Shown: positions 30,374 through 58,351, counted from the first letter of the stretch. The stretch is DNA of 64,000 nt from an uncultured virus (IMG/VR IMGVR_UViG_3300017917_001941) (IMGVR_UViG_3300017917_001941), one strand, 5' to 3'. The notes: generated by a model from the sequence alone, not told the origin. Translations and numbers: made by a program.

Positions 30374-30374
30374 C

Positions 30375-31884: not shown

Positions 31885-31908
31885 GTTTTGACGGTGTAGT
31901 GGTCGAGC

Positions 31909-32580
31909 ATGAAGAATCCGATTTGTTTTGCTCTTGATGGGATGCGTGCGGACGAGGCCGATTGTTATGTGGATTTGTTGGAGGATTATGTAGGTGCCTT
32001 TAAGGTTGGCCTGGAGTTATTCATTCGGGCCAAGCGCCTCCCAAGAAGTTCGAAGCCTATCATTCTTGATCTGAAGCTTCATGATATTCCGGAGACGATC
32101 AGCCGAGCGGTTGCCGCCGGGTGTGACCTTGGTGCCAAGTTTATGACGATCCATATCCAGCAACGAAGAGCTCTGGAGCAGGCTGCCCTCGTTGCTGCTC
32201 CCTACGGATGTACCCTCCTAGGAGTCACTGTTTTGACTTCAATGGACGAATCCGATTTTCGGGATCTGAACTTTGCAGATTCTGAGCCATTGTTTCGGGT
32301 AATTCGCCTCGCTCGTTTTGCGTCAGAGTGTGGACTTAAAGGATTCGTTTGCTCCCCACAGGAAGTAGGTGAACTTCACCAGCGACTCCCCGATTCTTTT
32401 TTTCTTGTTCCGGGGATTCGCCCCATCGGCTCGGATATAGCGGATCAGAAACGAGTAGGAACTCCAGGGCAGGCGGTCAGGGACGGTGCCAGTTTGATCG
32501 TTGTTGGTCGGCATATTCGGGATTCTAAAAACCCGGTTAGTGCCGCTAAGGCTATCCTTGAGGAAGTCCTTCAGGGGTGA
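31909..32580 (+). CDS. pyrF: orotidine-5'-phosphate decarboxylase
   Basis: FKVGLEL, LDLKLHDIPET, VTVLTS, VPGIR, DQKRV.TP, VVGR. Confidence 0.95.
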   Translation: MKNPICFALDGMRADEADCYVDLLEDYVGAFKVGLELFIRAKRLPRSSKPIILDLKLHDIPETISRAVAAGCDLGAKFMTIHIQQRRALEQAALVAAPYGCTLLGVTVLTSMDESDFRDLNFADSEPLFRVIRLARFASECGLKGFVCSPQEVGELHQRLPDSFFLVPGIRPIGSDIADQKRVGTPGQAVRDGASLIVVGRHIRDSKNPVSAAKAILEEVLQG

Positions 32581-35187: not shown

Positions 35188-35293
35188 TAAACAATCTCTC
35201 CTGTATAATGTTGAGGTACCCTATTTTTCAATAAAGTCTAGGAGATTTTTTCTTTGATCACTAATGGCCTAACGGTTACGATTTTATGGAATC

Positions 35294-35376
35294 GCTCAGG
35301 TGGTGGAACTAGGTAGACACATCTGTCTCAAAAACAGATGCCCTATGGCGTGAGGGTTCGAGTCCCTCTCTGAGCA
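35294..35376 (+). tRNA. tRNA-Leu(CAA)
   Basis: tctgt-ctCAAaa-acaga. Confidence 0.9.
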
Positions 35377-35407
35377 CTGTTTGGTGTAAAGTGGGTTGGT
35401 CCTCAAA

Positions 35408-35753
35408 GGGAGTGACAGGTTTCGACGGGGTGCTGAAGGGATTTTTCGCGTGTAGGCGGCTCTCGATCCGCCTTGACCAAGCGAGAAAAGCATAACTGCC
35501 AACGATAACGGCAACGCTCTTCGGGCTGCGGCCTGAGAGTCGATCCACTCTGAGATAGTCCTGGTAGGGGTATGGGTCGTCAACCACGAGGGCTGGTCTT
35601 TTCTTCGGGCTTCCGGAGGGTGAGACAAGATAAACAGGAAGCTAGGTCGTTGGCCGAACCCACGAACCCCGCCGGAAGGGCAGACCGGCTACACACGTGA
35701 ATGAGGGAAATCATTAGGTGTTCCGGACCCGGGTTCGATTCCCGGCACTTCCA
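35408..35753 (+). ncRNA. ssrA: tmRNA, tag ANDNGNALRAAA*
   Basis: 5' GGGAGTGACAGGTTTCGAC, 3' GACCCGGGTTCGATTCCCGGCACTTCCA, G3-U70; tag ORF 35498-35536. Confidence 0.93.
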
Positions 35754-35755
35754 CG

Positions 35756-35791
35756 AAGCCTGACGTATGAGAGTACGTCAGGCTTTTTTTT
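35756..35791 (+). terminator. Rho-independent terminator
   Basis: aagcctgacgta-tgagag-tacgtcaggctt followed by a T-run. Confidence 0.85.
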
Positions 35792-42808: not shown

Positions 42809-42857
42809 AAGATCTACCCTTGAGTCAGGGTTTGGTTGTCGGTGTATAATGACAACC

Positions 42858-43607
42858 ATGGTTTCAGCATCCCAAATTTTGTGGGTTTTATTTGGCAGCC
42901 CTTCGCCTGAAGTGCAGTGCAAGCCTTTTTCTGGTACTTGTTGGGTATGTGGGGGTGAGGCAACCCTAGGTGTACCTCGTGAGTCTTGGCTGGGAGCTAG
43001 TTTTGTAGGGCAGAATAGAGTCAAAGACCCTCGCTCTGAATGGGTTTGTATTGCATGTACCTATGTTTGTGCTCGGCTTTCTCCGGTGCCGGGTCGTCCC
43101 CCAAAAGAAGGTAAAGAGTTAGGTGGTAACTTTCGAAATTATTCTCATTTTTTTGACGATGGTGCCTATTTTAATGCAACTAAAGGGGAGAAACCTAGCA
43201 TTCTATCATTCGTATGTTCAACTCACCACGGTCCATGGTTTGCTGCGATAGCGGAGAGTGGTCAAAAGCATGTCCTACCGTGGGCCCCCGTAAACCCAGA
43301 GGGGTGCAGGAATGGGCGGGTCCTTTTTGAGGAAATGGAGGTTACCCTCCCTCTGTATGGCACAAATGAGTGGTATTTGCCGAGTGATATGATCAACCTT
43401 CTAACCGAAGGTGCTACCAAGGAATCTCTTGGGCGGGGTCAGTATACGTCTCAAGAGTGGCAACGTTGTCAGAGTATTCAAGAATTTGAAAGAAAATGGA
43501 GCTACATGAGGGATAGCCCATTTTGGGCCCTGTCTCTGTTTTTGGCTCAAAGAGATGAGATGAAGGTTCAAAGTAATGCCAAAGTTATCAGAAAGCCAAA
43601 AAGATAG
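42858..43607 (+). CDS. csf1: type IV CRISPR large subunit Csf1 (Cas8-like)
   Basis: CWVCG...CIAC Zn finger, ESGQKHVLPWAPVN; first gene of the csf cluster (alternative ATG at 42849). Confidence 0.72.
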   Translation: MVSASQILWVLFGSPSPEVQCKPFSGTCWVCGGEATLGVPRESWLGASFVGQNRVKDPRSEWVCIACTYVCARLSPVPGRPPKEGKELGGNFRNYSHFFDDGAYFNATKGEKPSILSFVCSTHHGPWFAAIAESGQKHVLPWAPVNPEGCRNGRVLFEEMEVTLPLYGTNEWYLPSDMINLLTEGATKESLGRGQYTSQEWQRCQSIQEFERKWSYMRDSPFWALSLFLAQRDEMKVQSNAKVIRKPKR

Positions 43608-43944
43608 GCTTCGTACGTTAACGGTTGAGGTTCTTCTTGAGGTAAGAATGGCATACCTTAGAACTACTGGAGCTAATTCCCTAAAGAATTGGGATATTCT
43701 TCAGACTAGGTTGAGGATAGCTACGAGGATGGCAACCACACCTGAGCAGTGGGCCACTCAGTTGATTCGTGGCTTGGGCATAACCCAAGCTATGTCGGTC
43801 AGTGGTTCTAGTGCCCTTGTTGACTTAGTTTCCGATATTCACGAAAATGGTTACTTCCGGCAGTGGAGGCACATGCTTGACACGGAATGGGGTCTCCTTA
43901 TTGCGAAGGCTCGATTAATTGTTGAGAAGCAGAAAGCAGGTTAA
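43576..43944 (+). CDS. small helical subunit, Cas11-like
   Basis: 122-aa all-helical ORF between csf1 and csf2, the IV-B cas11 position. Confidence 0.6.
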   Translation: MPKLSESQKDRLRTLTVEVLLEVRMAYLRTTGANSLKNWDILQTRLRIATRMATTPEQWATQLIRGLGITQAMSVSGSSALVDLVSDIHENGYFRQWRHMLDTEWGLLIAKARLIVEKQKAG

Positions 43945-44938
43945 AGTGTACACTCAAAAAACTTATGAGTTTGTATTACGAGCACAACAACCAATAGCTC
44001 ATAGTGCTGGAACCGAGGGAAACCATTCCTACCTAATGACACGCGGGCAAGTTCAGTTGGATGGATCAATTGTGGACATACCCATCGTTAGCGGGGATAC
44101 GATGCGTCACGGCTTAAGAGAGGCTGTTGCCTATGCCTTTTTAGATGCTGCTGGTCTTTTGGATAAGCCAGCTTTTAGCAAGGCTGCTCTTCGTCTCTTA
44201 TTCAACGGAGGGATGGTTACAGGGCGTGGTGATGCTAGTGTTATTAAGCTGGATTTGTATAGGGAGATGGTCAACTTAATTCCGCCCTTAGGCCTTCTTG
44301 GAGGGTGCGCCAATAACCGGGTAATCCAAGGCTATATTTGGGTAGATGATGCTCTACTTATTTGTGATGAGACACGGCACTTATTGCCGAGTAAGATCCT
44401 TGATTGGTGTGAAGGTCAAAATTTTGATATCTCTGAATCTACCGCATACATGGAAGTGGCCCAGCGTGTTCGAATGGATTCCACTCTCGAGCCTAATAAG
44501 GTAAGGCTCCTTTCAATCCCTGCTCGGGTGGAGTTGAATCAGACTATGGTCTTGAGTGAAGAGGCTCATACGAACGACGACATAATAGGTATCGATGAAA
44601 CTAAGTGTTCTATGATGCCTCGTACCTCAGAAAGGATTAAAGCAGGGTCTCTTTTTTATTGGTCAATTACGGGAAATATTCACTCTGACTTGGAAATGGA
44701 CACCTTTAATACGATGATTGCAACATTTTTGACCAATGCCAGGGTTGGGGGTCAAAAAGGTCGAGGTTGTGGGTTGCTCAAAGCGATTCCAGGTGGTGCT
44801 TGGGATGTATCTTGCTCACCCTTCTCTGAGAGAACCAGCAATATGGATCTTGCTCCCGAGTTGGGCAAAATGTTCAAGGCACATGTTCAAGAACGAGCAG
44901 CGCAGGTGAAGAAGTTCCTCTGTGAAGTAGACGCATGA
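43919..44938 (+). CDS. csf2: type IV Cas7-family backbone Csf2
   Basis: QPIAH, IPIVSGDTMRHGLRE, LLFNGG, PPLGLLGG, VGGQKGRGCG G-loop. Confidence 0.85.
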   Translation: MLRSRKQVKVYTQKTYEFVLRAQQPIAHSAGTEGNHSYLMTRGQVQLDGSIVDIPIVSGDTMRHGLREAVAYAFLDAAGLLDKPAFSKAALRLLFNGGMVTGRGDASVIKLDLYREMVNLIPPLGLLGGCANNRVIQGYIWVDDALLICDETRHLLPSKILDWCEGQNFDISESTAYMEVAQRVRMDSTLEPNKVRLLSIPARVELNQTMVLSEEAHTNDDIIGIDETKCSMMPRTSERIKAGSLFYWSITGNIHSDLEMDTFNTMIATFLTNARVGGQKGRGCGLLKAIPGGAWDVSCSPFSERTSNMDLAPELGKMFKAHVQERAAQVKKFLCEVDA

Positions 44939-45621
44939 TGGTGCCTTTACGCGTTACGGCGCAGTTAGCTGGGGCTATTGGCTCGGTACCTATGCTTGAT
45001 GCTATGCTCATGGCATCTAAGGCCCTTAGGGATGGGTTACCGCCGGTTGATGCGTGCCCTAATAGAAGGCCTTCTATAATCGATATACCAATAAAGCTAT
45101 CACCTTGCGGTCGGTTTCATTTGTGCTCTGGGCCAATTTATTCGCGAGTATCCTCGGAGCTTCGTTATACAAACCGTCGATTTCCAATTGAGCAGGCGGT
45201 ACACCTAGGGGACCCGAAATGGGGCAGGGTTTCTCTTAGTACGGGTCCGGAAAAGTCCTATCGGATTCCAACATCAATAGGGTTTTTGTCAGGTAATGTG
45301 GTTACTTGGTACTGTCTTGGTGAACGAGACGCTTTGATAGGGTTGTTGAAGTTCTGTAAATTTCTGGGAAAGAAGCGTAGTGTCGGCAATGGGAAAGTTT
45401 CAGCTTGGTCTGTTTTAGAATGTCTTGAGTGGGAGGGTTTTCCGGTAGTTAAGCAAGGAAAGCCTTTAAGACCTCTCCCTCCGTCTTGGCCTGGACTAAA
45501 AGAACCATCCATGGCGTACGTAGTTTTGGGGTCAGTTGGTGTATGTTATTGGGACCACACAGCGAAGGAACTTTGTGCGGTACCCGATGATGTCAACCAA
45601 ACCTTGCCCATATTGCGGTAG
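44935..45621 (+). CDS. csf3: type IV Cas5-family Csf3
   Basis: PLRVTA.L..MLDAML, WYCLG, LGKKRSVGNGKV..W.V, LRPLP, YW. Confidence 0.82.
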   Translation: MMVPLRVTAQLAGAIGSVPMLDAMLMASKALRDGLPPVDACPNRRPSIIDIPIKLSPCGRFHLCSGPIYSRVSSELRYTNRRFPIEQAVHLGDPKWGRVSLSTGPEKSYRIPTSIGFLSGNVVTWYCLGERDALIGLLKFCKFLGKKRSVGNGKVSAWSVLECLEWEGFPVVKQGKPLRPLPPSWPGLKEPSMAYVVLGSVGVCYWDHTAKELCAVPDDVNQTLPILR

Positions 45622-46594
45622 TTCGATGCCGAATGTTCCCGGGAGGTCAACCTGCGGGAAGAGTTCGTGCCGTTGTACAAGAAATGTTCGTTTGCGTTTA
45701 GGACAGGACATGCCGGTCCATCTTGGGGAGGTGACTTGTTGCGTTTGTGGTACAGAGGTTCCGCGAGTCAACTGGAATCAAGTTACATGTGGAAGTGCGC
45801 GATGCCAGAATAAGATTAAGCTTCGTTCTGTAGTAGCCAGGGAGAATAACCGGAAACGTAATCGTGCATGGGCAGAGATACATCGTAACGTGCATTCACA
45901 TAACCCGTGGCTGTTGGGTGCACCGCCGTATGAAACACATCTTCCTGGTGGAGGCATGGAACTAGAATTCCACCCAGCTCCAAAATGGCCTTTACTTCAC
46001 CGAAATATTCAAGGGTTGCATGGGGTCATTACGTCCCTTCTTGCGGTCCCTCATGAAAATGTACCAGTATTTTCCCTGATTCCGTGGCCTCGTGGATGTG
46101 GCTGGGGAGTCTATGTTCGGACGGATGCTTGGTTAACCTTGGCGAACAAGAGGTACCCTGTTAGGCTTTTTGAGCAGCGATTAGAAGCATGTTTCTCTCC
46201 TTTGCGTCGTCTCAAGGCCCCACTTGTCTCTACTAGGGGGCACCAAAAAGTTCGTATTAGTACAGTTACTCCTGTTTCTACAGGCAATGATGGTCACAAG
46301 AATACCCACCTTAGACCTACATCTGGCAACATAAAAAGTACACTGGTCCGGCACATGTCTCCTCGGTTGGGTCTGTACTTACCTCAAGAGAATGTTTGCG
46401 TCGAGGTAGTGAGACAAGAGACTGAGTCCGAGTACATCCCTATAGGTGGGAAGTTTGGGAATTTGTATGGTTGGGTTGGAATGGTCGAGTTAGAGGTTAA
46501 TGCGGTTGCCAGGTGGCTCTTGGAAGTGTCTTCAATGATTGGGCTTGGTGGCCGAACCTCTTTAGGATTTGGGCGGATTAGGCTGATAGGGTAA
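45587..46594 (+). CDS. cas6: Cas6-family RAMP fused to N-terminal Zn fingers
   Basis: ISTVTPV, GWVGMV, GLGGRTSLGFGRI (GhGxxxxxGhG); N-terminal CPYC..C...C and CVC..C...C. Confidence 0.7.
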   Translation: MMSTKPCPYCGSSMPNVPGRSTCGKSSCRCTRNVRLRLGQDMPVHLGEVTCCVCGTEVPRVNWNQVTCGSARCQNKIKLRSVVARENNRKRNRAWAEIHRNVHSHNPWLLGAPPYETHLPGGGMELEFHPAPKWPLLHRNIQGLHGVITSLLAVPHENVPVFSLIPWPRGCGWGVYVRTDAWLTLANKRYPVRLFEQRLEACFSPLRRLKAPLVSTRGHQKVRISTVTPVSTGNDGHKNTHLRPTSGNIKSTLVRHMSPRLGLYLPQENVCVEVVRQETESEYIPIGGKFGNLYGWVGMVELEVNAVARWLLEVSSMIGLGGRTSLGFGRIRLIG

Positions 46595-46597
46595 GTT

Positions 46598-47227
46598 ATG
46601 TCAGTAAGAACCTTTCGTCACCCTGATGGGATGGTACAGCGTCTTGCGGTCTCGGACCTTTGCGTTGAAGGCGTAGACGTGTTCAGGTCTTTTGGGGACA
46701 TTCATGTCGTGTATAGTGACCCACCTTGGAATCCTGGGAATGAAAAGTGGTGGCGTACGTATGCTAACTTAGACCCTCCAAAGTCATATGGCCTGTTTTT
46801 GGATTCTTGGTGTCGATGTGCCTGTTTGGGTAACCCGGAGCACATATTTTGCGAGCAGTCAGTAAATTCGAAACATCGTGACCTGCTGAAGGAAGCCGTG
46901 CTCAGGTGTGACTCCTGGGTGTTACCTTTGATTGAGGAATGGACCATTTGGTATGGGAGCCCTTCTCGCCCGAATGTGTTGATGCACTTTGGAAGATCTT
47001 CGTTAGGAGCTGACCTCACTGACATGCGTGGTGAGGAGATGGTAGCGCTCGTCTTGGACACTCTCAACTTGCCCAAGGGTTCTGTGGTTGCTGACCCGTG
47101 TATGGGCTTGGGTACGACGTCTAGGCAAGCGCATAAACATGGCTTATGCTGTGTAGGAACCGAACTTAATCCAGTTCGGTTGGATAGGACGATTGGGTGG
47201 TTGTTAAGGTCTGGGTACTCCGAATGA
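46598..47227 (+). CDS. amino-methyltransferase (N6A/N4C type), compact
   Basis: YSDPPW and VADPCMGLGTT...GTELN. Confidence 0.78.
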   Translation: MSVRTFRHPDGMVQRLAVSDLCVEGVDVFRSFGDIHVVYSDPPWNPGNEKWWRTYANLDPPKSYGLFLDSWCRCACLGNPEHIFCEQSVNSKHRDLLKEAVLRCDSWVLPLIEEWTIWYGSPSRPNVLMHFGRSSLGADLTDMRGEEMVALVLDTLNLPKGSVVADPCMGLGTTSRQAHKHGLCCVGTELNPVRLDRTIGWLLRSGYSE

Positions 47228-48084
47228 TTTGCTTGGGTTTTGACCTTTCCCAAAAAGATACCTGCCTAAACAACTATTGTGCGGAGCACGGTATCCGAAA
47301 AGTGTTTGTTCTCTCACCCGAGAAGTTCAAGCTAAGCGTTACCCTTGAGTCGGAGTTCGTTGAGTGGGCAGAGATCATTGAGTACAACTACTTTTACCGG
47401 CTACTTCAGGAAGTAGATGATAGTACCCTGGTGGTTGTAAATGAGTGTCTGAGGACACAGAATCGGAACGACCTTACCTATAACTGTATGCGGCACTTTC
47501 TGAATCAGACTAAACATCAGCTCATTTTTCAGTATCTGCCGATAATAGACACCCTGGATGACTTCATGATACTGTTTGACCTCGATACTCGGAGCAGGTG
47601 GAAGAGGTCCAAGTTTAGTGTTGGTTTGTTGTCCGAGGCGGAGGTGCGAATTCAACCTGTGCTCCCATCCTTTGAAAAGGTTCTTGTTCCCACAGGTGAG
47701 AAGCTCCGGTCGGATTACTTGAAACTGAAGCGAAAATTGATCGATGGCATAGGTCTAAAGGACCCACACACAATTCCTCGTAATCTGTACCTCTTATCGG
47801 GTAAAGCGAAGGTTGGTTACTTACATGCTAATAGGCACTATATTGGAAGGAATAACCGTTTTAAGCTCGAAAACCTAGAGACTTACAAGGAAGCGCAATA
47901 CCCGCATTCTTATACTGTGTTCGAGTTCTGTCATAACTTTGTGGACTTTTGTGACTTTCTGTCATTATCCAGGCAGAAGGACTTCGAGGTCCTCACAACG
48001 GATCTCAAGGTAGACCAGTGGTATTATGACCGATACATCGCGTGGTTGGAGAGGCTAAGGGATGCCTACTCAGCGTTACAGTGA
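47224..48084 (+). CDS. hypothetical protein upstream of ibrA
   Basis: ATGA-coupled; VVVNECLR. Confidence 0.7.
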   Translation: MICLGFDLSQKDTCLNNYCAEHGIRKVFVLSPEKFKLSVTLESEFVEWAEIIEYNYFYRLLQEVDDSTLVVVNECLRTQNRNDLTYNCMRHFLNQTKHQLIFQYLPIIDTLDDFMILFDLDTRSRWKRSKFSVGLLSEAEVRIQPVLPSFEKVLVPTGEKLRSDYLKLKRKLIDGIGLKDPHTIPRNLYLLSGKAKVGYLHANRHYIGRNNRFKLENLETYKEAQYPHSYTVFEFCHNFVDFCDFLSLSRQKDFEVLTTDLKVDQWYYDRYIAWLERLRDAYSALQ

Positions 48085-49189
48085 AAAGAATGTACTAGAG
48101 GCCGCCCGTGAGCGTATATCATTCATTTTCGACAGTATTGAGAACATAGTTCTCTCTATTAGCGGTGGCAAAGACTCTACGGTTATGGCACACCTCGTTT
48201 TGTGCGAAGCACAAAAGAGAGGCCGACGTGTAGGTGTGTTCTTCCTAGACGAAGAAGTTATGTACCAAAGTAGCGTTGATCAAGTGGAGTACCTCCTGGG
48301 ACTATTCCCGAGTAACATCAAGAGAATGTGGCTTCAGGTTCCTTTTTTTATGACGAACGCTACGTCGTTCAGTGAGAGTCAATTGAGGTGCTGGGAGCCA
48401 GGGGAGCATGAAATCTGGATGCGCCCTAAGGGTCCTTTGAATATCAAAGCTAAGCCTTGGGCAGAGGCTGATGAAAAGTTCAGAACCGGGTACAAATGGT
48501 TGGACTTTTACGGTGTAATTCAGAATTTTGAGCGGTGGCACAAGGATACAGCGTTTCTTATCGGACTTCGTGCAGCGGGGGAGTCTCCAAATCGATGGCG
48601 TGCAGTTGTCAAAAATCCGGTGGTCTTAGGGGGGAAAAATGTGTATTGGGGCACGAAGAAAGGGGAGAACTATAATCTTTACCCCATCTATGATTGGAAC
48701 TTTCACGATGTCTGGCGTTACATTTATGACGAGAAGCTAAGGTACTCTAAGATCTATGACTTTCAGTTCAAGAAGGGATACCCGATCAATCAAATGCGGG
48801 TATCCTCTTTGATCCATGAGCGGGCCTTCAAGAGCATTTGTGACTTGCCAGAGTTTGAGCCGAAGACCTACAACAGGTTGATGAAGCGCATTAGGGGGAT
48901 CTCGTTAGCTCAAGAGACAGGAAAGAGTGCGAAACTTTTTGCGGCTCGGAAGTTGCCGAAGAACTTTAAGTCTTGGTTGACCTATCGGGATTTTCTGATA
49001 CAGACTTACCCCGACCGATCCCGAAGGTCGATATTTGAGGCCCGGTTTGCAAGGCACCTACAGAACGAGTACGTTGCTCGTCAGCAGGTGCGCCAGTTAA
49101 TTTTGAATGACTATGAGAATAACATTCCTATTGATAACAAGCCTGACCCACGTGACGACTTGATTCGTTATTATGAGGAGGTTCTATGA
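48062..49189 (+). CDS. ibrA: IbrA-like PAPS-reductase-family protein
   Basis: NVLEAARERI, SISGGKDS, FLDEE, GLRAAGES.NR, YPIYDW, MRVS. Confidence 0.85.
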   Translation: MPTQRYSEKNVLEAARERISFIFDSIENIVLSISGGKDSTVMAHLVLCEAQKRGRRVGVFFLDEEVMYQSSVDQVEYLLGLFPSNIKRMWLQVPFFMTNATSFSESQLRCWEPGEHEIWMRPKGPLNIKAKPWAEADEKFRTGYKWLDFYGVIQNFERWHKDTAFLIGLRAAGESPNRWRAVVKNPVVLGGKNVYWGTKKGENYNLYPIYDWNFHDVWRYIYDEKLRYSKIYDFQFKKGYPINQMRVSSLIHERAFKSICDLPEFEPKTYNRLMKRIRGISLAQETGKSAKLFAARKLPKNFKSWLTYRDFLIQTYPDRSRRSIFEARFARHLQNEYVARQQVRQLILNDYENNIPIDNKPDPRDDLIRYYEEVL

Positions 49190-49776
49190 TCTGTTACATT
49201 GACACAGTGGAACAGTTCCTGGAAGTCAGGCGTACCTTGGTTCCCGTGTATATTCACTCGAAGACTCATGGGAAAGTGCTGGTCCCCTGTACTAACACGA
49301 TTCTTGTTCGGCCAGACCTGGTCGTAGCGAACGGGTATAACCCTAACTTTGTTCCGAGCGAGAAGATGGACCTTCTTAGGCAGTCCATTTTAGATAATGG
49401 TTTTTGTTTCCCTGTTGTAGCTATATGGGATGAGGACCAGGAGAAGTTTTGTATCATTGATGGGTTCCACCGGAGAACTGTGGGTGGTGCAGATTGGTTG
49501 GACTTTGATTACATCCCTGTCGTTTGCCTTTCTCATGATATTAAGCAGAGGATGGCGGCCACTGTGCAATTCAATAAAGCACGAGGCGTACACCAAGTAG
49601 ACCTGGATGCAGAGGTCATTCGTTCCTTGATAGAGCAGGGCATGGGTGAAGAGGATATCTCAATTCACCTTGGAATCGACCTTGAGACCATACATAGGTA
49701 CAAGCAGATTACTGGGGTTGCGGAGCTGTTCAAGAACTCAAACTACTCAACAAGTTGGTATATTGCGGATGACTGA
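49186..49776 (+). CDS. ibrB: IbrB-like ParB/Srx-domain protein
   Basis: ANGYNPN.V, SILDNGF..P, IIDGFHR, RMAATVQFNKARGVH. Confidence 0.88.
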   Translation: MICYIDTVEQFLEVRRTLVPVYIHSKTHGKVLVPCTNTILVRPDLVVANGYNPNFVPSEKMDLLRQSILDNGFCFPVVAIWDEDQEKFCIIDGFHRRTVGGADWLDFDYIPVVCLSHDIKQRMAATVQFNKARGVHQVDLDAEVIRSLIEQGMGEEDISIHLGIDLETIHRYKQITGVAELFKNSNYSTSWYIADD

Positions 49777-50578
49777 GCCAATTCTTGATGCTCATGACGT
49801 GGAAGTCTTCGATGCATGGTTGGCACAGGCTAGTGTATGGGCTCAAACTAGAGTGTACAAGGCGCGTGTGGATAAGGCTAAGCGAGTCGTTGACCAATGC
49901 CTAAGTCTCGTCCCTGATTCAGTGTGTATGTGGTCGGGGGGAAAAGATTCCACTGCTATGACTCATCTTGTTAGCATGATTCACCCAGGTATCCCGGTAG
50001 TCACTGAAAAAGATGACTTGGATTTTCCTGGTGAGCGAGCCTACGTTGAAAGGGTTCTTTCAATGTTTGGGTGGAATGTCCGTATCATTTCGCCTGAGGT
50101 GTCTCCGCAGGATTGGATCATGAAGCACGCACCTGGTCTGACATCTGAGGATGACTTCCATTCAAGATCCGCTGCCCTGAGCAAGGAATGTTTTTACAGG
50201 TTAGTGGAAGAGGCTTCTCGTAAGTACCAAGCTATCTTCTTGGGTTTACGCCAAGAAGAGTCTAGGGGTCGAGCGCTCAATAGGGCATGTCGGGGGGTGC
50301 TTTACCAAAAGAGCAATGGGCAGTATACATGTACACCAATTGCTGATTGGAGGGGGATTGATGTTTACGCTTACTTGGTATCAAACGGTATTCCTCTGTT
50401 AGATGTCTACCGTTGTGTGGGATTTATGCATGCAGATGAGCCTTTCCGTATAAGAAAGTCTTGGTGGATTCCCGGGCAGTCAGGCCGTTATGGAGGCGTA
50501 GCTTGGTTGCGACGCTACTGGCCTTCTTTGTACTATCAGTTATGTGAATGGATGCCAGATGCCAGACGTTTGACCTAA
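49769..50578 (+). CDS. cysH: CysH-like PAPS-reductase-family protein (type IV-B associated)
   Basis: WSGGKDS, GLRQEESRGR, PIADW..DVYAY, WLRRYWP. Confidence 0.82.
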   Translation: MTEPILDAHDVEVFDAWLAQASVWAQTRVYKARVDKAKRVVDQCLSLVPDSVCMWSGGKDSTAMTHLVSMIHPGIPVVTEKDDLDFPGERAYVERVLSMFGWNVRIISPEVSPQDWIMKHAPGLTSEDDFHSRSAALSKECFYRLVEEASRKYQAIFLGLRQEESRGRALNRACRGVLYQKSNGQYTCTPIADWRGIDVYAYLVSNGIPLLDVYRCVGFMHADEPFRIRKSWWIPGQSGRYGGVAWLRRYWPSLYYQLCEWMPDARRLT

Positions 50579-50623
50579 CCAAGTTAGGTCAACTTATGAT
50601 TTCAGTTATAGGTCCAGTGTAGC

Positions 50624-54115: not shown

Positions 54116-57100
54116 ATGTTGATCCTCCACACACCAACCGTATCAAATAGATTTCGGTTTTCAGAAGACTTTTTGTCTCCTTATTATGTCAAAGGAGACC
54201 CGTTCCAGAGTCTTTTGGCACGATCTACTTACTTGACTAAGTATTGCCGGGGCGGTGAAGTGTGGACTGACACAATCCGTAGGGTCGTCGAAGCTAATTT
54301 GTCCCTTGCTGCTGAGGTGGACAGCGGCGAGGCGAAGATGCTCTTCCATCTATTTTGGACCGGGCAGGCCCTTCCGCCCGGACGAGGGCTTTGGACGGGA
54401 GGTATTGAGGGAATTCCGTCGGATGCCCGTTACAACTGTTTTTCTGGTGAAACACGGTTCTGGGCAAACGGGAACCTCACTAGCTTTGAGGATTCCGTCG
54501 GTCAGACTGTTGAAGTCCTTTGCCAGGATGGCAAGTGGCGTCCTGCGGAGGTCAAGTCCTTCGGGAAGCAGGCTCTTCGTACTATCCGGATGACCGCTCC
54601 TGACCGTTCCAAGTTCTCCTTTGACTTCGTTGCAACCCCAGGGCATCGATGGATTACTAGCAATCGAGGCTTGGTAGAAGACCTTAAGGTGGGTGACCGA
54701 GTTTTGGTAACGCCAAGGGATGTCTCCGACCTTCGAGGTACCCAAGATTTCAAGGACGGCTTCGCACATGGTTTCATGTTCGGGGATGGGACTAAAGAGA
54801 CCCAGAAGGATACAACCTACAAGATCAGGCTTTGTGGTGAGAAGGATTGGCAGCACAAGGACTTGTTGAAGCAAGCAAGCCAGTTCTCGTATGAGTGCTC
54901 ACCCCCATCCTACAACGGGGATCCTGTCCTTTTCTTCAAGAGTCCCACCAACCCTCGACATAACCTTCCAGAGGATTCAGCCAGCTCTGCCTATCAAGTT
55001 GGCTTCATTGAGGGGTGGCTTGCAGCCGATGTTTCGTGGCGAACCAATGGTGTGGGTGGGAACCGCTTGAACTCCATCAATGCTACTGCGATTGATTGGG
55101 CAATCGAGAGACTTCCCTTGCTCGGTTACTGCCCAACTGGAAGGTATACCGACTCGAACGAAGAGACCAATTACGGGAAGCGTTCTGCTCCAATGCAGGT
55201 CTTGACGGTTCAACCAAAGCCTGTTGAGTATACTGTCCGATCCATCACTGACGAGGGTAGGGAGGAAGAGGTCTATTGTGTTGTTGAACCCGAGACTAAG
55301 ACCTTCACGCTTGAGGGTGGGATTGTAACAGGAAATTGTTGGTATACGACCCTTTACAGCATTGACGATTGGTGTTGGACGGCGAACCAGCTCATGCTTG
55401 GGGGCGGAGTAGGAGTAGGCCTGAATGAAATCTCATCTCTTCCAGTTGTGCAAGGCCATCTAGGGGCCAGGATGGCTGTCTGGTGCGCTGACACTCACCA
55501 GAATGTGAGTGAGGTTCAGCCTAACCCTAAGAGTTTCCTCAACGGCCAGACACCCGTATTTCGGGTTCCCGATTCACGAGAGGGTTGGGTTGCTGCTCTC
55601 CGCACGGTCCTCACCTCGGCGTTTCATGCCAAGGATCTCATTGTTGATGTGTCCGATGTCCGGGCTAGGGGTCTCCCGATCCGTACCTTCGGAGGCATCG
55701 CTTGTGGCCCTGGCCCTCTTACGCAGCTGCTTCGAAGTGCCTGGTCGATCGTTCGTGGCGCTGCTGGGCGTAAACTCAACAGCGTCGAGGCATTGGATAT
55801 TACGAATTATATCGGCCTCTGTATTAAGGCAGGCAATGTCAGGAGGTCAGCCCTCATAGCCCTTGGTGACGCGGAGGACCAAGCTTTCCGGGACGCGAAA
55901 AAGGATATGGAAAAGGTCATATCCCATAGGCATACGTCGAATAACACCATAGTTTTTCGGTCATGGCGCCAGATTCATTCATTTAACTGGCATGCTCTTG
56001 TTCGTGACATGGCCGAGAATGGATCAGGGGAGCCGGGCATACTTAACCTCCCTCTCGGGTGGCAAAAAGACCCTGGTGCAAAGGGTGTAAATCCTTGCTT
56101 CTCAGGAGATACTCAAATTGCAGTAGCGGACGGGAGGAACTCTGTATCGATTCGGCAACTTGCGGAAGAGGGTCGGGATGTTCCTGTATACTCTGTGAAC
56201 AATAGTACAGGTAAAGTTGAGATTAAGATGGGTCGAAACCCTCGCGTTACAGGGTATAGACAGACCTTGGTTCGGGTGTGGCTGGATGATGGGGGTTACT
56301 TGGATACCACTCCCGATCATAAGTTTGTCCTTCGCGATGGAACTGTGCTTCAGGCGTCAGAATTGAAGCCTGGTATGAGTTTGCCGAGGTTTACGAAGCG
56401 TCCGGAGAAACTAACCTCTAAAGGTAAGGACTACTACCATATTTACTGTGATACTAGAAGTGAGAGAAGTAATAGGGTTGCTGAACACCGTCTTATTGCC
56501 AGGTTTTTCGACCCAGAGAAGTGGCATAGTGTTTATTCCACTTGTCGAAAAAATGGGTTTGCAAATACAGGTGGGTTAGTAATCCACCACAGGGATTACA
56601 ACCCTCTTAACAATGCTCCTGATAATCTCCAAATTATGACGTTTGAAGATCATTCCAAGGCCCATGCTAAGGTGGATCAGATGGGAGAGAAGAATGGACG
56701 TTGGTCCGGAGTCCCTAATGAGTTGGTCCGGGAGCATGCGATTAGATTGACTCGTCAATTGGGGCGTAGGTTCAGTGCAGAGGATTGGGATCAGTATGCT
56801 AGGGATAACGAGCTTCCTCGTCAGTTTTCGCGTTATCGTGTACAAGCACTAGGTACTGTTCAGGGGATGGCTAAATCTTGTGCACTTGAGTTGGGTTACG
56901 AGCACACTAATGAGGACCCGCGCATTGTTAAGACCTATCAGTCTATGTTAAAGCAGGGTTATGAGACACGGATTTGCAATGGAAAAGTTTTTGTCACAAG
57001 GGTTTGTGAAACTTGCCAAGCTCAGTTTGAGGTAGAGCATTCTTATCGTGAACGGGCTTTTTGTTCACCCACCTGTGCTAGTAAGCATGTTAACTCTGAC

Positions 57101-58351
57101 ATGGAGATACATACTCGTCGCGTAAGAGGTGTGCGCAACGGTTACCGGGTCCGGATGGCTGGGGTGAAAAATAGTCAGGTTCGTGTTTGTTCTGACCTTA
57201 GGTTCAAGCTGGGTCGAGATCCGATACGCAAAGAATGGATTGAGGCTTGTAAGTCTCAGGGGGTTTCCTCAAGGATCGGACCTACACTGGTTTTCGGATT
57301 CAAGTCTTTTCAGGCTGTCAGAGAAGCTACTGAATCCTACAATCACAAGGTACTTCGGGTTGAGACTTTACCTGGGGAGCATACGGTTTTTAATATTACC
57401 GTTGATGATTTTCATACTTTGGCTGTTGTTACCTCTACAAGCCTTGTCAGTAGTGCTACTGCCTACACTGGGATATATGTAATGAACTGTGGTGAACAGC
57501 TTTTGCACGACCGAGAGAGTTGCAACCTTGCCGAGGTTTTTCCAGCTAAATTCGAAGATACTACTAATCCGGACTTGGTTTTTCGCCTTGTAACTCGGTA
57601 CTGCCTTCGTCAACGTCTCACTCCCCTTTCTGATCCCAAAAGCCAAGAGGTCGGGTTGGCTAACATGCGGGTGGGAGTCGGTCTTGGCGGCCTGTGTGAT
57701 TTCTCTTGGACAAAGCCTCAACTCAACCGTTGGTACTCTATGTGCCGTGAGGAGGCCACCCGGTATGCCAAGGAACTCGGTGTTAATGCGCCGATTACTG
57801 TAAGTACAATTAAGCCTTCTGGAACGATTAGTTTACTTAATGGCTCTAGTCCTGGCATCCATGCCCCCTACGCCCCTTATTATCTTCGTCGGACAAGGAT
57901 TGCCAAGAACGACCCTATGTCTATGGCGATGATGGAAGCAGGGGTACCATTCGAGGAGGACATCTACGACAAGTCCGGGCACACCTGGGTCTTCGCGTTT
58001 CCCATGAAGTCTACCTCGAAGATCACGGTTCAGAACGAGACCATCCGGGATCAGTTCCAGCGCCAGAAGGACGTGCAAGAGGCATGGGCGGACAATGCCG
58101 TCTCTGCTACCTTGAGCTTCAATCAGGATGAGCACGAAGAGCTGGCAAATTGTCTCAAGGAATATGTGCCGTACCTCAAGAGCACCTCTACACTTCCGAA
58201 GGCGCATGGGTATGCCCAGCCCCCGTATGAGGCAATCACTCAAAGTCAATATGAGCAGCTTTATGCTCATATTGAGCATAGTCATCCCTTGGTTCGTGGC
58301 GGTGACATGGAAGCTGAAGAGTGCCAAAATGGAGTATGTCCTGTACGATAA
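54116..58351 (+). CDS. nrdJ: class II (B12) ribonucleotide reductase with two inteins
   Basis: PPGRGLW, LMLGGGVG, GNVRRSA, NP|CGE, CNLAE, TIKPSGTISLL, C-terminal CQNGVCPVR. Confidence 0.92.
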   Translation: MLILHTPTVSNRFRFSEDFLSPYYVKGDPFQSLLARSTYLTKYCRGGEVWTDTIRRVVEANLSLAAEVDSGEAKMLFHLFWTGQALPPGRGLWTGGIEGIPSDARYNCFSGETRFWANGNLTSFEDSVGQTVEVLCQDGKWRPAEVKSFGKQALRTIRMTAPDRSKFSFDFVATPGHRWITSNRGLVEDLKVGDRVLVTPRDVSDLRGTQDFKDGFAHGFMFGDGTKETQKDTTYKIRLCGEKDWQHKDLLKQASQFSYECSPPSYNGDPVLFFKSPTNPRHNLPEDSASSAYQVGFIEGWLAADVSWRTNGVGGNRLNSINATAIDWAIERLPLLGYCPTGRYTDSNEETNYGKRSAPMQVLTVQPKPVEYTVRSITDEGREEEVYCVVEPETKTFTLEGGIVTGNCWYTTLYSIDDWCWTANQLMLGGGVGVGLNEISSLPVVQGHLGARMAVWCADTHQNVSEVQPNPKSFLNGQTPVFRVPDSREGWVAALRTVLTSAFHAKDLIVDVSDVRARGLPIRTFGGIACGPGPLTQLLRSAWSIVRGAAGRKLNSVEALDITNYIGLCIKAGNVRRSALIALGDAEDQAFRDAKKDMEKVISHRHTSNNTIVFRSWRQIHSFNWHALVRDMAENGSGEPGILNLPLGWQKDPGAKGVNPCFSGDTQIAVADGRNSVSIRQLAEEGRDVPVYSVNNSTGKVEIKMGRNPRVTGYRQTLVRVWLDDGGYLDTTPDHKFVLRDGTVLQASELKPGMSLPRFTKRPEKLTSKGKDYYHIYCDTRSERSNRVAEHRLIARFFDPEKWHSVYSTCRKNGFANTGGLVIHHRDYNPLNNAPDNLQIMTFEDHSKAHAKVDQMGEKNGRWSGVPNELVREHAIRLTRQLGRRFSAEDWDQYARDNELPRQFSRYRVQALGTVQGMAKSCALELGYEHTNEDPRIVKTYQSMLKQGYETRICNGKVFVTRVCETCQAQFEVEHSYRERAFCSPTCASKHVNSDMEIHTRRVRGVRNGYRVRMAGVKNSQVRVCSDLRFKLGRDPIRKEWIEACKSQGVSSRIGPTLVFGFKSFQAVREATESYNHKVLRVETLPGEHTVFNITVDDFHTLAVVTSTSLVSSATAYTGIYVMNCGEQLLHDRESCNLAEVFPAKFEDTTNPDLVFRLVTRYCLRQRLTPLSDPKSQEVGLANMRVGVGLGGLCDFSWTKPQLNRWYSMCREEATRYAKELGVNAPITVSTIKPSGTISLLNGSSPGIHAPYAPYYLRRTRIAKNDPMSMAMMEAGVPFEEDIYDKSGHTWVFAFPMKSTSKITVQNETIRDQFQRQKDVQEAWADNAVSATLSFNQDEHEELANCLKEYVPYLKSTSTLPKAHGYAQPPYEAITQSQYEQLYAHIEHSHPLVRGGDMEAEECQNGVCPVR
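54437..55336 (+). mobile_element. intein 1 with LAGLIDADG-type homing endonuclease (300 aa)
   Basis: N|CFSGET...TPGHRW...GFMFGDG...GWLAAD...VYC..IVTGN|C. Confidence 0.88.
56096..57487 (+). mobile_element. intein 2 with HNH homing endonuclease (464 aa)
   Basis: P|CFSGDT...TPDHKF...EHRLIA...HHRDYNPLNN...VFNITVDDFHT...YVMN|C. Confidence 0.88.

What the first reader, a model, noticed from the sequence alone, without database searches (positions are those of the whole stretch)
42841..50578. Array-less type IV-B-like Cas operon with Cas6, a methyltransferase, IbrAB and CysH in one coupled unit
Seen: ten overlapping or abutting genes: csf1, cas11-like, csf2, csf3, ZnF-cas6, DPPW methyltransferase, unknown, ibrA, ibrB, cysH. 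The flanking intergenic gaps are under 50 bp and I find no CRISPR array, cas1/2 or dinG in the window. Established: type IV-B loci carry csf1-3, cas11 and cysH, typically lack an array and cas6, and their function is unresolved. Inference: two PAPS-reductase-family enzymes (the fold of DndC), a ParB/Srx protein and an amino-MTase beside an RNA-binding Cas complex suggest RNA-guided nucleic-acid modification or an anti-defence/crRNA-hijacking machine.
Basis: partly seen in the sequence, partly recalled or inferred. Interest (0 to 1): 0.88.

Follow-up and report, generated by a model that had tools for sequence, protein, structure and literature searches.

The report
Phage type IV-B CRISPR, IbrAB cassette
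A very large phage carries an array-less type IV-B CRISPR-like protein complex whose operon also holds its own RNA-cutting Cas6 and a conserved set of predicted DNA-modifying enzymes, a combination that gives a testable clue to what this unexplained CRISPR subtype does.

Summary
Ten co-directional, overlapping or abutting genes at 42849-50578 encode Csf1, Cas11, Csf2, Csf3, a zinc-finger Cas6, a beta-class DNA methyltransferase, an unnamed protein, IbrA (PP-loop/DUF3440), IbrB (ParB-like) and a CysH-like protein. I found no array, cas1/2 or dinG in the 64 kb. The host replicon is a large phage (30 tRNAs, tmRNA, GroEL, RtcB, clamp loader, RNR). The unnamed protein folds as an SNF2-type two-lobe core without recognisable ATPase motifs.

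Comparative findings:
- csf1-cas11-csf2-csf3 occur together in 43 of 47 related phage-like loci.
- Cas6 is present in 28 of those 47, so it is common in this lineage.
- The block g7-IbrA-IbrB plus methyltransferase is a separate, highly conserved phage cassette.
- On 43 contigs fetched with its genes, it sits next to type IV-B genes on 11, directly behind an SNF2 helicase on 20, and never next to both.
- In IV-B loci it usually lies inside the operon, in at least six gene orders.

Best reading (0.45): an RNA-loaded Csf complex takes the place of the SNF2 motor and delivers a DNA-modifying enzyme set.

This is a new variant of a known kind. The scan met the same association before on other DNA (e1-5327793). 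Guide RNA, target and chemistry remain unknown.

The parts
42849..43607 (+). csf1 (Cas8-like large subunit with CxxC...CxxC zinc finger). It lacks the C-terminal Q..L[FW] tail seen in most relatives.
   Evidence: PADLOC typeIV_Cas8 1.3e-23 and NCBIfam cas8u_csf1 2.8e-07. Tail comparison.
43576..43944 (+). cas11 (small subunit)
   Evidence: PADLOC typeIV_Cas11 at 0.0039 for the window protein. 11 of 16 aligned family members match typeIV_Cas11 (best 4.6e-10). The profile's top PDB chain is 7JHY Cas11, at a weak E of 0.18.
43946..44938 (+). csf2 (Cas7 backbone). The ORF opens at 43919; the database copy starts at 43946.
   Evidence: PADLOC typeIV_Cas7 5.5e-40. The profile hits 7JHY type IV-B Csf2 at 8.6e-16. 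617 homologues at E<1e-5.
44935..45621 (+). csf3 (Cas5). Its start overlaps the csf2 stop by 4 nt.
   Evidence: PADLOC typeIV_Cas5 9.7e-26.
45587..46594 (+). Zinc-finger Cas6 endoribonuclease. The ORF opens at 45536.
   Evidence: Pfam CRISPR_Cas6 at 26.5 bits (cut-off 25). AF2 pLDDT 86.7. All listed Foldseek matches (to rank 50) are Cas6/Cse3, best 6FJW at 6.2e-09. Two invariant His and a glycine-rich loop across 20 homologues.
46598..47227 (+). Small beta-class (DPPW) amino-methyltransferase, most like DNA adenine methyltransferases
   Evidence: Pfam N6_N4_Mtase at 1.9e-05 (25.2 bits, just under the cut-off of 26.7). The family profile hits CcrM at 7e-12 and DpnA at 5.5e-11. DPPW and the DPCMGxG motif are invariant or nearly so.
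47224..48084 (+). g7: SNF2-like two-RecA-lobe protein of an unnamed family, probably ATPase-dead. It is encoded directly in front of IbrA in nearly all loci where the upstream DNA is present.
   Evidence: No Pfam, PHROG or NCBIfam hit. AF2 pLDDT 93.7. VIA-align Z 18.0, rmsd 3.4 A, 276 of 286 residues on CSB, and ranks 1-15 are all Snf2-family. No GxGKT motif, and NECL stands where Snf2 has DExH.
48062..49189 (+). IbrA-like PP-loop enzyme (PAPS_reduct + DUF3440) with an intact SGGKDS motif
   Evidence: Pfam 1.4e-12 and 1e-08. phrog_2302 at 1.2e-85. 58-70% identical across 38 of the 40 viral loci (the other two 32-34%). Mean column identity is 71%.
49186..49776 (+). IbrB-like ParB/Srx protein. 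Its start overlaps the ibrA stop by 4 nt.
   Evidence: phrog_2159 at 1.6e-41 and NCBIfam parB_part at 8.2e-05.
49769..50578 (+). CysH-like type IV-B accessory protein. PP-loop intact, no conserved C-terminal catalytic cysteine. The ORF opens at 49646.
   Evidence: Pfam PAPS_reduct 1.4e-15. PDB PAPS reductases at 2.8e-07. SxGKDS is invariant in 19 homologues and no Cys column is invariant.
50570..50592 (+). 10-bp perfect hairpin over the cysH stop codon; a possible operon terminator (weak evidence)
   Evidence: Consensus scan (13 sites found against 16.4 expected, so not enriched). Sequence read.

Best explanation
This is a phage-borne variant of subtype IV-B CRISPR-Cas. It encodes a complete Csf effector (Csf1, Cas11, Csf2, Csf3), its own zinc-finger Cas6, and the CysH-like PP-loop protein. 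A conserved phage cassette is inserted between cas6 and cysH: a DNA adenine-type methyltransferase, a dead-SNF2-like DNA-gripping protein, the PP-loop enzyme IbrA and the ParB-like IbrB.

Most likely mechanism, with the basis of each step:
1. The ten genes are expressed as one unit with the phage's replication genes. This is inferred from co-orientation and 4- to 35-nt overlaps.
2. Cas6 binds and cuts a hairpin RNA of still unknown origin, and the Csf subunits assemble on that RNA. This is inferred by homology with IV-A and the 7JHY complex.
3. The ribonucleoprotein binds DNA without cutting it. No nuclease was found.
4. It does for the enzyme cassette what an SNF2 translocase does in the cassette's other version: it gives CysH, IbrA, IbrB and the methyltransferase access to duplex DNA. 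The result would be an ATP-dependent (adenylation-type) modification plus methylation, for the phage's benefit. That benefit could be protecting its own DNA or marking or silencing other DNA.

Shown here: gene identities, folds, synteny, and the exclusive SNF2-or-Csf pairing. Inferred: guide, target, physical coupling and chemistry.
For: Identity of all ten products.

Phage context: 30 tRNAs and a tmRNA, and GroEL, RtcB, clamp loader, RNR and ligase.

The family is large and phage-like. Csf2 has 617 homologues. In 47 loci fetched with the Csf2 profile, 43 have all four core genes, 38 a CysH-like gene and 28 a Cas6.

The cassette is a unit. g7-IbrA-IbrB occur in that order wherever the upstream DNA is present, except in the two distant loci L092 and L093. 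The methyltransferase sits before g7 or after IbrB.

Partner exclusivity on 43 distinct contigs fetched with g7 or IbrA:
- 11 carry Csf2, even after profile iteration.
- 20 carry one orthologous SNF2 helicase directly upstream of g7.
- 0 carry both.
- The window has no such SNF2.
- In L091, SNF2 and g7 are one ORF.

Nesting: PADLOC confirms Csf genes in nine of these loci, all of Csf1, Csf2 and Csf3 in six, with at least six gene orders. In most of them the cassette lies between csf genes and cysH or csf3.

Module exchange:
- L007, L009 and L016 share 96-98% identical Csf1-3 and CysH, but their IbrA is 38-61% identical and IbrB 33-60%.
- Window against L048: IbrA 73%, IbrB 78%, g7 62%, but Csf2 only 20%.

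Pointers to DNA:
- The methyltransferase profile is nearest to CcrM and DpnA.
- g7 has a Snf2 fold.
- IbrB is ParB-like.
- 25 of 41 Csf1 relatives end in a Q..L[FW] motif, against a mean of 0.17 in shuffled tails. This resembles the sliding-clamp-binding motif, whose consensus I recall and did not take from a call.

Published analogies, read as passages in PMC12839542 and PMC8175902: DndC (PAPS-reductase family) with DndB (ParB family), and DpdA with the ParB-like ATPase DpdB.
Against: - No guide RNA, array, solitary repeat or target was found.
- Most IV-B relatives work without the cassette (IbrA in 5 of 47 loci), and most cassettes work without Csf.
- On the IbrA tree the partner label needs only 2 changes. 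The swap was therefore rare, and the exclusivity is partly phylogenetic inertia.
- On the Csf2 tree the AU test does not reject one clade for the window plus L007, L008, L009 and L016 (p 0.38). Repeated independent capture within the main clade is not shown.
- g7's likeness to SNF2 rests on a predicted structure only. Profile-profile comparison with the co-occurring SNF2 family gives 2.5% probability.
- The solved IV-B complex bound heterogeneous non-CRISPR RNA (PMC7937560, abstract only). PP-loop enzymes are often tRNA modifiers (my own knowledge), so an RNA target is not excluded.
- 59 kb of the contig is unseen.
Confidence: 0.45

Rival explanations
1. Two independent phage accessory modules share one variable slot. 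The type IV-B operon and the IbrAB cassette each work alone, and their adjacency reflects insertion hot spots and co-transcription convenience, not a joint mechanism.
For: - The cassette occurs without csf on 20 contigs with SNF2, and alone in cultured phages such as FCL-2, where ParB and the PAPS reductase lie between terminase and portal.
- IV-B occurs without the cassette in 42 of 47 loci.
- Only about 2 partner changes are needed on the IbrA tree.
- Other unrelated enzymes also fill the slot after csf3: radical SAM in L002, L039 and L046; a ParB-MTase and SNF2 in L020; a helicase in L024.
Against: - The cassette lies inside the operon, between csf3/cas6 and cysH or between cysH and csf3, with overlapping reading frames, in several different orders.
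- No contig has both SNF2 and Csf (0 of 43).
- Nearly identical csf-cysH operons keep an IbrAB cassette while exchanging its version.
Confidence: 0.25
2. Anti-CRISPR or guide hijacking. The phage Cas6 processes the host's pre-crRNA, or the Csf complex soaks up host crRNAs. This would disarm host CRISPR immunity or redirect the host's guides for the phage.
For: - Cas6 has conserved histidines and a glycine-rich loop but no array within reach.
- The setting is a phage.
- The idea is discussed, and judged unlikely, in PMC7038947 (passage read).
Against: - Ten genes is far more than any known anti-CRISPR uses.
- The host and its repeats are unknown, so no repeat match could be sought.
- It does not explain two PP-loop enzymes, ParB, the methyltransferase or the SNF2 alternative.
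Confidence: 0.1
3. The operon acts on RNA. The Csf filament coats RNA (tRNA, tmRNA or mRNA) and presents it to the PP-loop enzymes for base modification, as part of the phage's large translation-related gene set.
For: - The solved IV-B complex bound heterogeneous RNA (PMC7937560, abstract).
- The window holds 30 tRNAs, a tmRNA and RtcB just upstream.
- Many PP-loop enzymes modify tRNA (my own knowledge).
Against: - The cassette's constant partners are DNA-type proteins: a Snf2 fold, ParB, a methyltransferase of the CcrM/DpnA kind, and an SNF2 helicase in the other version.
- Most Csf1 relatives carry a clamp-like tail.
- Related loci mostly lie in ordinary phages without tRNA arrays.
Confidence: 0.1
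4. A conventional guided system whose array lies elsewhere. A cognate CRISPR array in the unseen 59 kb of the phage genome supplies crRNAs that Cas6 matures, for ordinary IV-A-like transcriptional interference.
For: - 2 of 47 related loci have true arrays within 10 kb: L013 with at least 6 repeats and L039 with 14.
- Archaeal-virus IV-B loci have a mini-array (PMC10541130, passages read).
- Cas6 looks functional.
Against: - 45 of 47 related loci have no array within 10 kb, although 28 have Cas6.
- I found no array in 64 kb here.
- There is no adaptation module.
Confidence: 0.08

Closest known systems
Subtype IV-B CRISPR-Cas (csf1-cas11-csf2-csf3 plus cysH-like), e.g. Mycobacterium sp. JS623, PDB 7JHY
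   Same: Same four effector genes in the same order. A CysH-like PP-loop protein without the catalytic cysteine. No array, adaptation genes, DinG or nuclease. Csf2 is closest to the 7JHY chain.
   Different: - Carried by a large lytic-type phage, not a plasmid.
- Has its own zinc-finger Cas6. PMC7038947 reports only 12 IV-B loci with a Cas6.
- cysH is displaced to the end of the operon by a four-gene IbrAB cassette.
Phage SNF2 / dead-SNF2 / IbrA / IbrB cassette (unnamed; E. coli IbrAB are the named relatives)
   Same: Same g7-IbrA-IbrB core with a methyltransferase. IbrA is 58-70% identical.
   Different: The active SNF2 helicase is absent. Csf1-3, Cas11, Cas6 and CysH stand in its place.
Subtypes IV-A and IV-D (Csf complex with DinG or RecD helicase)
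   Same: A nuclease-less Csf complex works with a DNA motor or enzyme recruited to the bound site. Cas6 matures the guide.
   Different: No helicase in the operon, no array, and cas11 and cysH are present. The only RecD-type gene is 10 kb away in the replication module.
Dnd (DndB-DndC) and Dpd (DpdA-DpdB) DNA modification systems
   Same: A PAPS-reductase-family PP-loop enzyme or base-exchange enzyme works with a ParB-family protein on DNA (passages in PMC12839542 and PMC8175902).
   Different: No cysteine desulfurase, DndD/E, TGT or restriction partner was found in the window. IbrA matches DndC only weakly (5.8e-05). The chemistry is unknown.
Type IV-B of Bathyarchaeia 'Fuxiviridae' viruses (PMC10541130)
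   Same: Virus-encoded IV-B with an adjacent CysH-like gene.
   Different: Those loci carry a mini-array, and in the passages read no Cas6 or IbrAB cassette is mentioned.

Membership tests
Subtype IV-B CRISPR-Cas | Csf1, Csf2 (Cas7) and Csf3 (Cas5) effector genes | tested here: met
   PADLOC 1.3e-23, 5.5e-40 and 9.7e-26. NCBIfam csf1/2/3 hits fall below the curated cut-offs.
Subtype IV-B CRISPR-Cas | Cas11 small subunit between csf1 and csf2 | tested here: met
   Weak for the window protein (0.0039), but 11 of 16 aligned homologues match typeIV_Cas11, best 4.6e-10.
Subtype IV-B CRISPR-Cas | Associated cysH-like gene with a PP-loop but without the catalytic cysteine | tested here: met
   PAPS_reduct 1.4e-15. 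SxGKDS is invariant and no Cys column is invariant in 19 homologues.
Subtype IV-B CRISPR-Cas | No CRISPR array and no adaptation module | tested here: met
   None in 64 kb. 59 kb of the contig was not available.
Subtype IV-B CRISPR-Cas | No helicase (DinG/RecD) in the locus | tested here: inconclusive
   None in the operon. A RecD2 gene at 60698-62968 matches typeIV_RecD at 3.8e-76, but it lies 10 kb away among replication genes.
Subtype IV-B CRISPR-Cas | No Cas6 | tested here: not met
   A Cas6 is present. This makes the locus a variant. 28 of 47 related loci share it.
Cas6 endoribonuclease | Two RRM-like domains with a C-terminal glycine-rich loop | tested here: met
   All listed Foldseek PDB matches (to rank 50) are Cas6/Cse3, with about 250 aligned columns. 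The loop GLGGRTSLGFGR is conserved.
Cas6 endoribonuclease | A cognate repeat RNA that it binds and cuts | tested here: not met
   No repeat or array was found in the window. Activity itself is not testable with these tools.
IbrA/IbrB pair | PAPS-reductase PP-loop domain plus DUF3440, encoded next to a ParB/Srx protein | tested here: met
   Pfam PF01507 and PF11922. phrog_2302 and phrog_2159. The genes overlap by 4 nt.
SNF2 ATPases (for g7) | Two RecA-like lobes in the Snf2 arrangement | tested here: met
   Predicted model only: Z 18.0, rmsd 3.4 A, 276 of 286 residues. Ranks 1-15 are all Snf2-family.
SNF2 ATPases (for g7) | Walker A (GxGKT) and DExH motifs; sequence-level homology | tested here: not met
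   No GxGKT in 25 homologues. NECL stands at the DExH position. No Pfam hit. hhalign against the neighbouring SNF2 family gives 2.5%. g7 is therefore not filed as an SNF2 member, only as SNF2-like in fold.
Beta-class N6A/N4C DNA methyltransferases | Motif IV (DPPW/Y) before motif I (SAM-binding glycine loop) | tested here: met
   DPPW at residues 41-44 and DPCMGLG at 166-172. The profile hits CcrM, DpnA, M.MboIIA and M.RsrI. Pfam scores 25.2 bits, just under the cut-off of 26.7.
Dnd phosphorothioation system | DndC together with DndA (cysteine desulfurase) and DndD/E | tested here: not met
   Only weak DndC-like hits (5.8e-05). No DndA, DndD or DndE among 61 window ORFs scanned with PADLOC.

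The most novel reading that the evidence does not exclude
Type IV-B Csf complexes are RNA-guided DNA-access modules. In phages they have replaced an SNF2 motor to aim a PP-loop/ParB/methyltransferase enzyme set at chosen DNA sites. That would be natural RNA-guided epigenetic modification of DNA, and the long-sought function of subtype IV-B and of the IbrAB enzymes at once.
Probability: 0.2. Interest if true: 0.9.

Novelty: new variant of a known kind. Interest (0 to 1): 0.7.

Why it matters
Subtype IV-B is the one common CRISPR-Cas subtype whose function is still described as uncharacterised. A 2024 review (PMC11656645, passage read) says so, and the 2025 classification (PMC12669027, passages read) reports no experimental IV-B function.

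This locus and its relatives tie the Csf complex to a defined, strongly conserved enzyme set that elsewhere depends on a DNA translocase. That turns 'function unknown' into a concrete experiment: does the Csf complex bring IbrA, IbrB, CysH and a methyltransferase to DNA, and what mark do they leave?

It also gives the widespread but biochemically unsolved IbrA/IbrB pair a likely substrate, duplex DNA. And it shows that in phages Cas6 is a normal part of IV-B, so a defined RNA ligand should exist and can be looked for.

Tried and rejected
- DNA-level search of the operon in 50,697 phage records found no match.
- A tblastn of Csf2 in those records found one distant hit, Skermania phage SPI1 at 24% identity, with all genes annotated hypothetical.
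- Close relatives of the window's Csf2 were not found in IMG/VR or JGI metagenome contigs. No whole genome is held for the window. The rest of the contig and the 64-68% identical relatives listed could therefore not be read.
- The ESM Atlas gave nothing usable for g7 (best score 0.82).
- The Cas6 profile against PDB sequences gave only E 0.35 to Cas6, so the fold search was needed.
- hhalign of g7 against the neighbouring SNF2 family gave no homology.
- Independent capture of the cassette within the main Csf2 clade is not shown. The AU test gives p 0.38.
- A link between the cassette and SAM decarboxylase appears on only one other contig, so I dropped it.
- The 'IbrA/B CRISPR/Cas' phage in PMC4490671 carries a type I-E system with arrays and is not a precedent.
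- Dnd-type phosphorothioation is rejected as membership for lack of DndA, DndD and DndE.
- RecD2 as a IV-D-type helicase of this system was considered and set aside. It lies 10 kb away behind the clamp loader, RNR and ligase, and it matches a phage RecD family at 1.7e-137.
- Promoter and terminator scans show no enrichment over shuffles.
- Literature searches for the IV-B plus IbrAB or SNF2 association found no paper that describes it. Subscription journals and supplements were not covered.

Full report
**Observation.** The window has ten + strand ORFs between 42849 and 50578 that overlap or abut. The gaps to the neighbouring genes are 40 bp upstream (after a GroEL gene) and 45 bp downstream.

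Profile searches name nine of the ten genes:
- Csf1: PADLOC typeIV_Cas8, 1.3e-23.
- Cas11: 0.0039.
- Csf2: 5.5e-40.
- Csf3: 9.7e-26.
- Cas6: Pfam 26.5 bits against a cut-off of 25.
- An N6_N4-type methyltransferase: 25.2 bits, just under the cut-off of 26.7.
- IbrA: PAPS_reduct + DUF3440; phrog_2302 at 1.2e-85.
- IbrB: phrog_2159, ParB-like, 1.6e-41.
- A second PAPS-reductase-family protein: 1.4e-15.

NCBIfam's csf models match only below their curated cut-offs, so the proteins are divergent members.

The weak Cas11 call is backed by its family. Of 16 aligned homologues from the same gene slot, 11 match typeIV_Cas11 models (best 4.6e-10). The profile's first PDB chain is the Cas11 of 7JHY, though only at E 0.18. 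The Csf2 family profile is closest to the Csf2 of the solved type IV-B complex 7JHY (8.6e-16).

Homologues support later starts for four genes: 43946, 45587, 47224 and 49769.

**Absences.** I found no CRISPR array with Tandem Repeats Finder, with two direct-repeat searches or with a pair scan of my own. Rfam at gathering score finds only 28 tRNAs and the tmRNA. None of 51 ORFs outside the operon matches cas1, cas2 or dinG in PADLOC.

There are two caveats. The window is 64 kb of a contig given as 123,040 bp, and the rest could not be fetched. A RecD2-type helicase at 60698-62968 best matches PADLOC's typeIV_RecD model (3.8e-76). However, it lies 10 kb away behind the clamp loader, RNR and ligase genes, and it matches a phage RecD family even better.

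**Context.** The replicon is a large phage. It has 30 tRNA genes and a tmRNA at 21.3-35.8 kb. It also has GroEL, RtcB, a DEDDh exonuclease, clamp-loader subunits, an intein-bearing class II RNR, NAD ligase, a tail-fibre-like 1462-aa protein, dCTP deaminase, peptide deformylase and further methyltransferases.

**The two proteins that profiles left open.**

*Cas6.* Twenty homologues share two invariant histidines and the C-terminal glycine-rich loop, and most have one or two N-terminal zinc fingers. The AF2 model (pLDDT 86.7) matches only Cas6 and Cse3 structures among all listed Foldseek hits (to rank 50). The best is S. thermophilus Cas6 6FJW at 6.2e-09, and the list includes the type IV Cas6 6NJY.

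*g7 (47224-48084).* It has no Pfam, NCBIfam or PHROG hit, only a marginal PADLOC AbiEi match (0.0097), and no usable Atlas neighbour. Its 25-member alignment gives a model with pLDDT 93.7. That model aligns over 276 of 286 residues to Snf2-family ATPases. The Z-score is 18.0 with rmsd 3.4 A on CSB, and ranks 1-15 of a search of 48,161 representative chains are all Snf2-family. Foldseek agrees.

The family has no GxGKT motif and carries NECL where Snf2 enzymes have DExH. Profile-profile comparison with a true SNF2 family gives no signal. I therefore call it SNF2-like in fold and probably ATPase-dead, not an SNF2 member.

*Other products.* The methyltransferase family profile is nearest to CcrM (7e-12) and DpnA (5.5e-11). 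The CysH-like family keeps SxGKDS and the PAPS-reductase core motifs but has no invariant cysteine. This is what PMC8175902 (passages read) reports for the type IV-B CysH.

**Relatives of the Cas part.** Csf2 has 617 homologues at E<1e-5, mostly about 50% identical and from metagenomes. A profile of 23 of them fetched 33 IMG/VR loci and 14 contigs filed under MAGs of scattered phyla.

By phmmer with the window's proteins:
- 43 of 47 loci have all four core genes. The four exceptions are short or cut contigs.
- 38 have a CysH-like gene.
- 28 have the Cas6, placed either before csf1 or after csf3. One more locus has a Cas6e-type gene.
- Only 5 have IbrA and IbrB.

Two of the 47 have real arrays within 10 kb: L013 with at least 6 repeats and L039 with 14.

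The slot after csf3 is variable. It holds radical SAM enzymes (L002, L039, L046), a ParB-methyltransferase with an SNF2 helicase (L020), a helicase (L024) or ParB (L042).

PMC7038947 (passages read) reports IV-B as largely confined to predicted plasmids, sometimes prophages, with Cas6 in only 12 instances. The Cas6-bearing phage lineage seen here is therefore under-described, though not unknown in kind.

**Relatives of the enzyme block.** g7 and IbrA used as queries fetched 46 loci on 43 distinct IMG/VR contigs. IbrA is 58-70% identical in 38 of the 40 loci it fetched. The mean column identity of 25 aligned copies is 71%.

Wherever the upstream DNA is present, g7 directly precedes IbrA and IbrB follows, except in the two distant loci L092 and L093. 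The methyltransferase sits before g7 or after IbrB. A GNAT is added in at least two contigs.

The 43 contigs divide as follows:
- 11 carry Csf2, a number unchanged after profile iteration.
- 20 carry one orthologous SNF2 helicase directly upstream of g7 (over 500 bits each).
- 2 carry fragments of that helicase.
- 6 end at the cassette.
- 4 have neither.
- None has both.

The window itself has no such SNF2. In L091, SNF2 and g7 form a single ORF.

PADLOC confirms Csf genes in nine of the Csf2-bearing loci. They show at least six gene orders:
- csf1-csf2-csf3-cas6-MT-g7-ibrA-ibrB-cysH (L048, the window's order).
- csf1-cas11-csf2-csf3-(MT/GNAT)-g7-ibrA-ibrB-cysH (L071, L076).
- csf1-cas11/csf2-cysH-g7-ibrA-ibrB-MT-csf3 (L060; L061 has the same order as far as its contig reaches, without csf3).
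- csf2-csf1-cysH-MT-g7-ibrA-ibrB-csf3 (L054).
- csf...-g7-ibrA-ibrB-MT-cysH (L063, L079).
- MT-g7-ibrA-ibrB-csf1-csf2-csf3 (L086).

L009, L011 and L016 add a further order, csf...-cysH-MT-g7-ibrA-ibrB.

**How strong is the coupling?**

*For coupling.* The cassette is mostly internal to the operon. The SNF2-or-Csf choice is exclusive. There is also clear module exchange. L007, L009 and L016 have Csf1-3 and CysH at 96-98% identity, but IbrA at 38-61% and IbrB at 33-60%. The window and L048 share IbrA at 73%, IbrB at 78% and g7 at 62%, but Csf2 at only 20%.

*Against over-reading.*
- On an IbrA tree of 43 rows the partner label needs only 2 changes. Nine rows were left out because they share contigs with other rows or are truncated: L011, L050, L055, L059, L064, L084, L085, L088 and L089.
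- On a Csf2 tree of 50 rows the cassette label needs 3 changes, of which 2 are forced by well-supported branches. Nine rows were left out as duplicates or fragments.
- An AU test does not reject one clade for the window plus L007, L008, L009 and L016 (p 0.38).

The association is therefore old and clustered. It is not a swarm of independent captures.

**A further pointer to DNA.** Of 41 distinct Csf1 proteins, 25 have Q..L[FW] within the last 30 residues, and 16 have QL[SDGAT]LF. Shuffled tails give a mean of 0.17 and a maximum of 2 in 1000 shuffles. This resembles the beta-clamp-binding motif, whose consensus I recall from memory.

The window's Csf1 and the four other cassette-bearing Csf1 proteins lack it (0 of 5). 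These represent about three lineages, so this is only suggestive.

**Mechanism.** The committed mechanism is the four-step one stated under Best explanation: co-expression, Cas6-nucleated Csf assembly on an unknown RNA, nuclease-free DNA binding, and the Csf complex (with CysH) doing for the enzyme set what the SNF2 motor does in the other cassette version. The two PP-loop enzymes, the ParB-like IbrB, the SNF2-like g7 and the adenine-type methyltransferase would then modify DNA.

Precedents for PP-loop or base-exchange enzymes working with ParB-family proteins on DNA are DndC with DndB and DpdA with DpdB (passages in PMC12839542 and PMC8175902).

The identities, folds and synteny are shown here. 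Everything about guide, target, contacts and chemistry is inferred. I give the whole reading 0.45. The rivals are:
- Independent modules in one slot, 0.25.
- crRNA hijacking, 0.10.
- An RNA target, 0.10.
- A conventional array elsewhere, 0.08.

**Novelty.** Searches of the held library and passages read in PMC7038947, PMC8175902, PMC10541130, PMC11656645 and PMC12669027 show that IV-B is still uncharacterised. None of them mentions an IbrAB cassette or an SNF2 alternative. Subscription papers and supplements were not covered.

The scan itself met this before on other DNA:
- e1-5327793: the IbrAB block inside a IV-B operon, with the SNF2 alternative.
- e1-5351890: a dead Snf2 in front of IbrA.
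- e1-6121281: a zinc-finger Cas6 in phage IV-B.

I re-tested those claims here and they hold. This window adds a huge-phage example with the order cas6-MT-g7-ibrA-ibrB-cysH, and the module-exchange and exclusivity counts.

Noticed in passing
window 21292-35756: 30 tRNA genes in several clusters plus a tmRNA (tag ANDNGNALRAAA). There are near-duplicate tRNA pairs and a duplicated 99-nt block at 23740 and 27533. This is typical of huge phages.
   Followed up: partly
window 60698-62968: A RecD2-type helicase matches PADLOC's typeIV_RecD (IV-D) model at 3.8e-76 over nearly its full length. It lies 10 kb downstream of the csf operon, within the replication module. It is probably an ordinary phage RecD2, but PMC11656645 notes that some IV-B variants have a RecD homologue.
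   Followed up: partly
Loci L001-L046, Csf1 C-termini: 25 of 41 distinct Csf1 proteins of this phage family end in a Q..L[FW] motif (16 with QL[SDGAT]LF) after a disordered acidic linker, like a sliding-clamp-binding tail. It is absent in the window and in all other cassette-bearing loci examined.
   Followed up: yes
L091:7756-10026: The SNF2 helicase and the g7-like protein form a single 756-aa ORF. This natural fusion suggests the two act together.
   Followed up: partly
window 10614-11036; L053:13773-14189: An S-adenosylmethionine decarboxylase gene lies in the window, next to dCTP deaminase and a methyltransferase. A related one sits directly after the cassette's methyltransferase on one other contig. 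This hints at a non-methyl SAM-derived modification. It was seen only twice.
   Followed up: partly
L002, L039, L046 (downstream of csf3): A ~490-aa radical SAM enzyme occupies the slot after csf3, where CysH usually sits. L039 also has a 14-repeat CRISPR array 6 kb upstream.
   Followed up: no
window 54116-58351: A class II ribonucleotide reductase is interrupted by an intein with an HNH homing endonuclease (1411 aa in all).
   Followed up: no
window 13593-14687 and 34650-34900: Coding regions with 69-nt, 24-nt and 63-nt tandem repeats. The second lies inside an 868-aa minus-strand ORF with no family match.
   Followed up: no
window 42840-42860: A TATAAT hexamer overlaps the first ATG of csf1, and a second in-frame ATG lies 9 nt downstream. 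The operon might have its own promoter and a leaderless start. This comes from reading the sequence only.
   Followed up: no
L094 (Flavobacterium phage FCL-2) and L007, L009, L049, L058: ParB-like and IbrA-like genes, or the whole cassette, often lie next to the large terminase gene in ordinary-sized phages. In the window the cassette sits in the replication module instead.
   Followed up: partly
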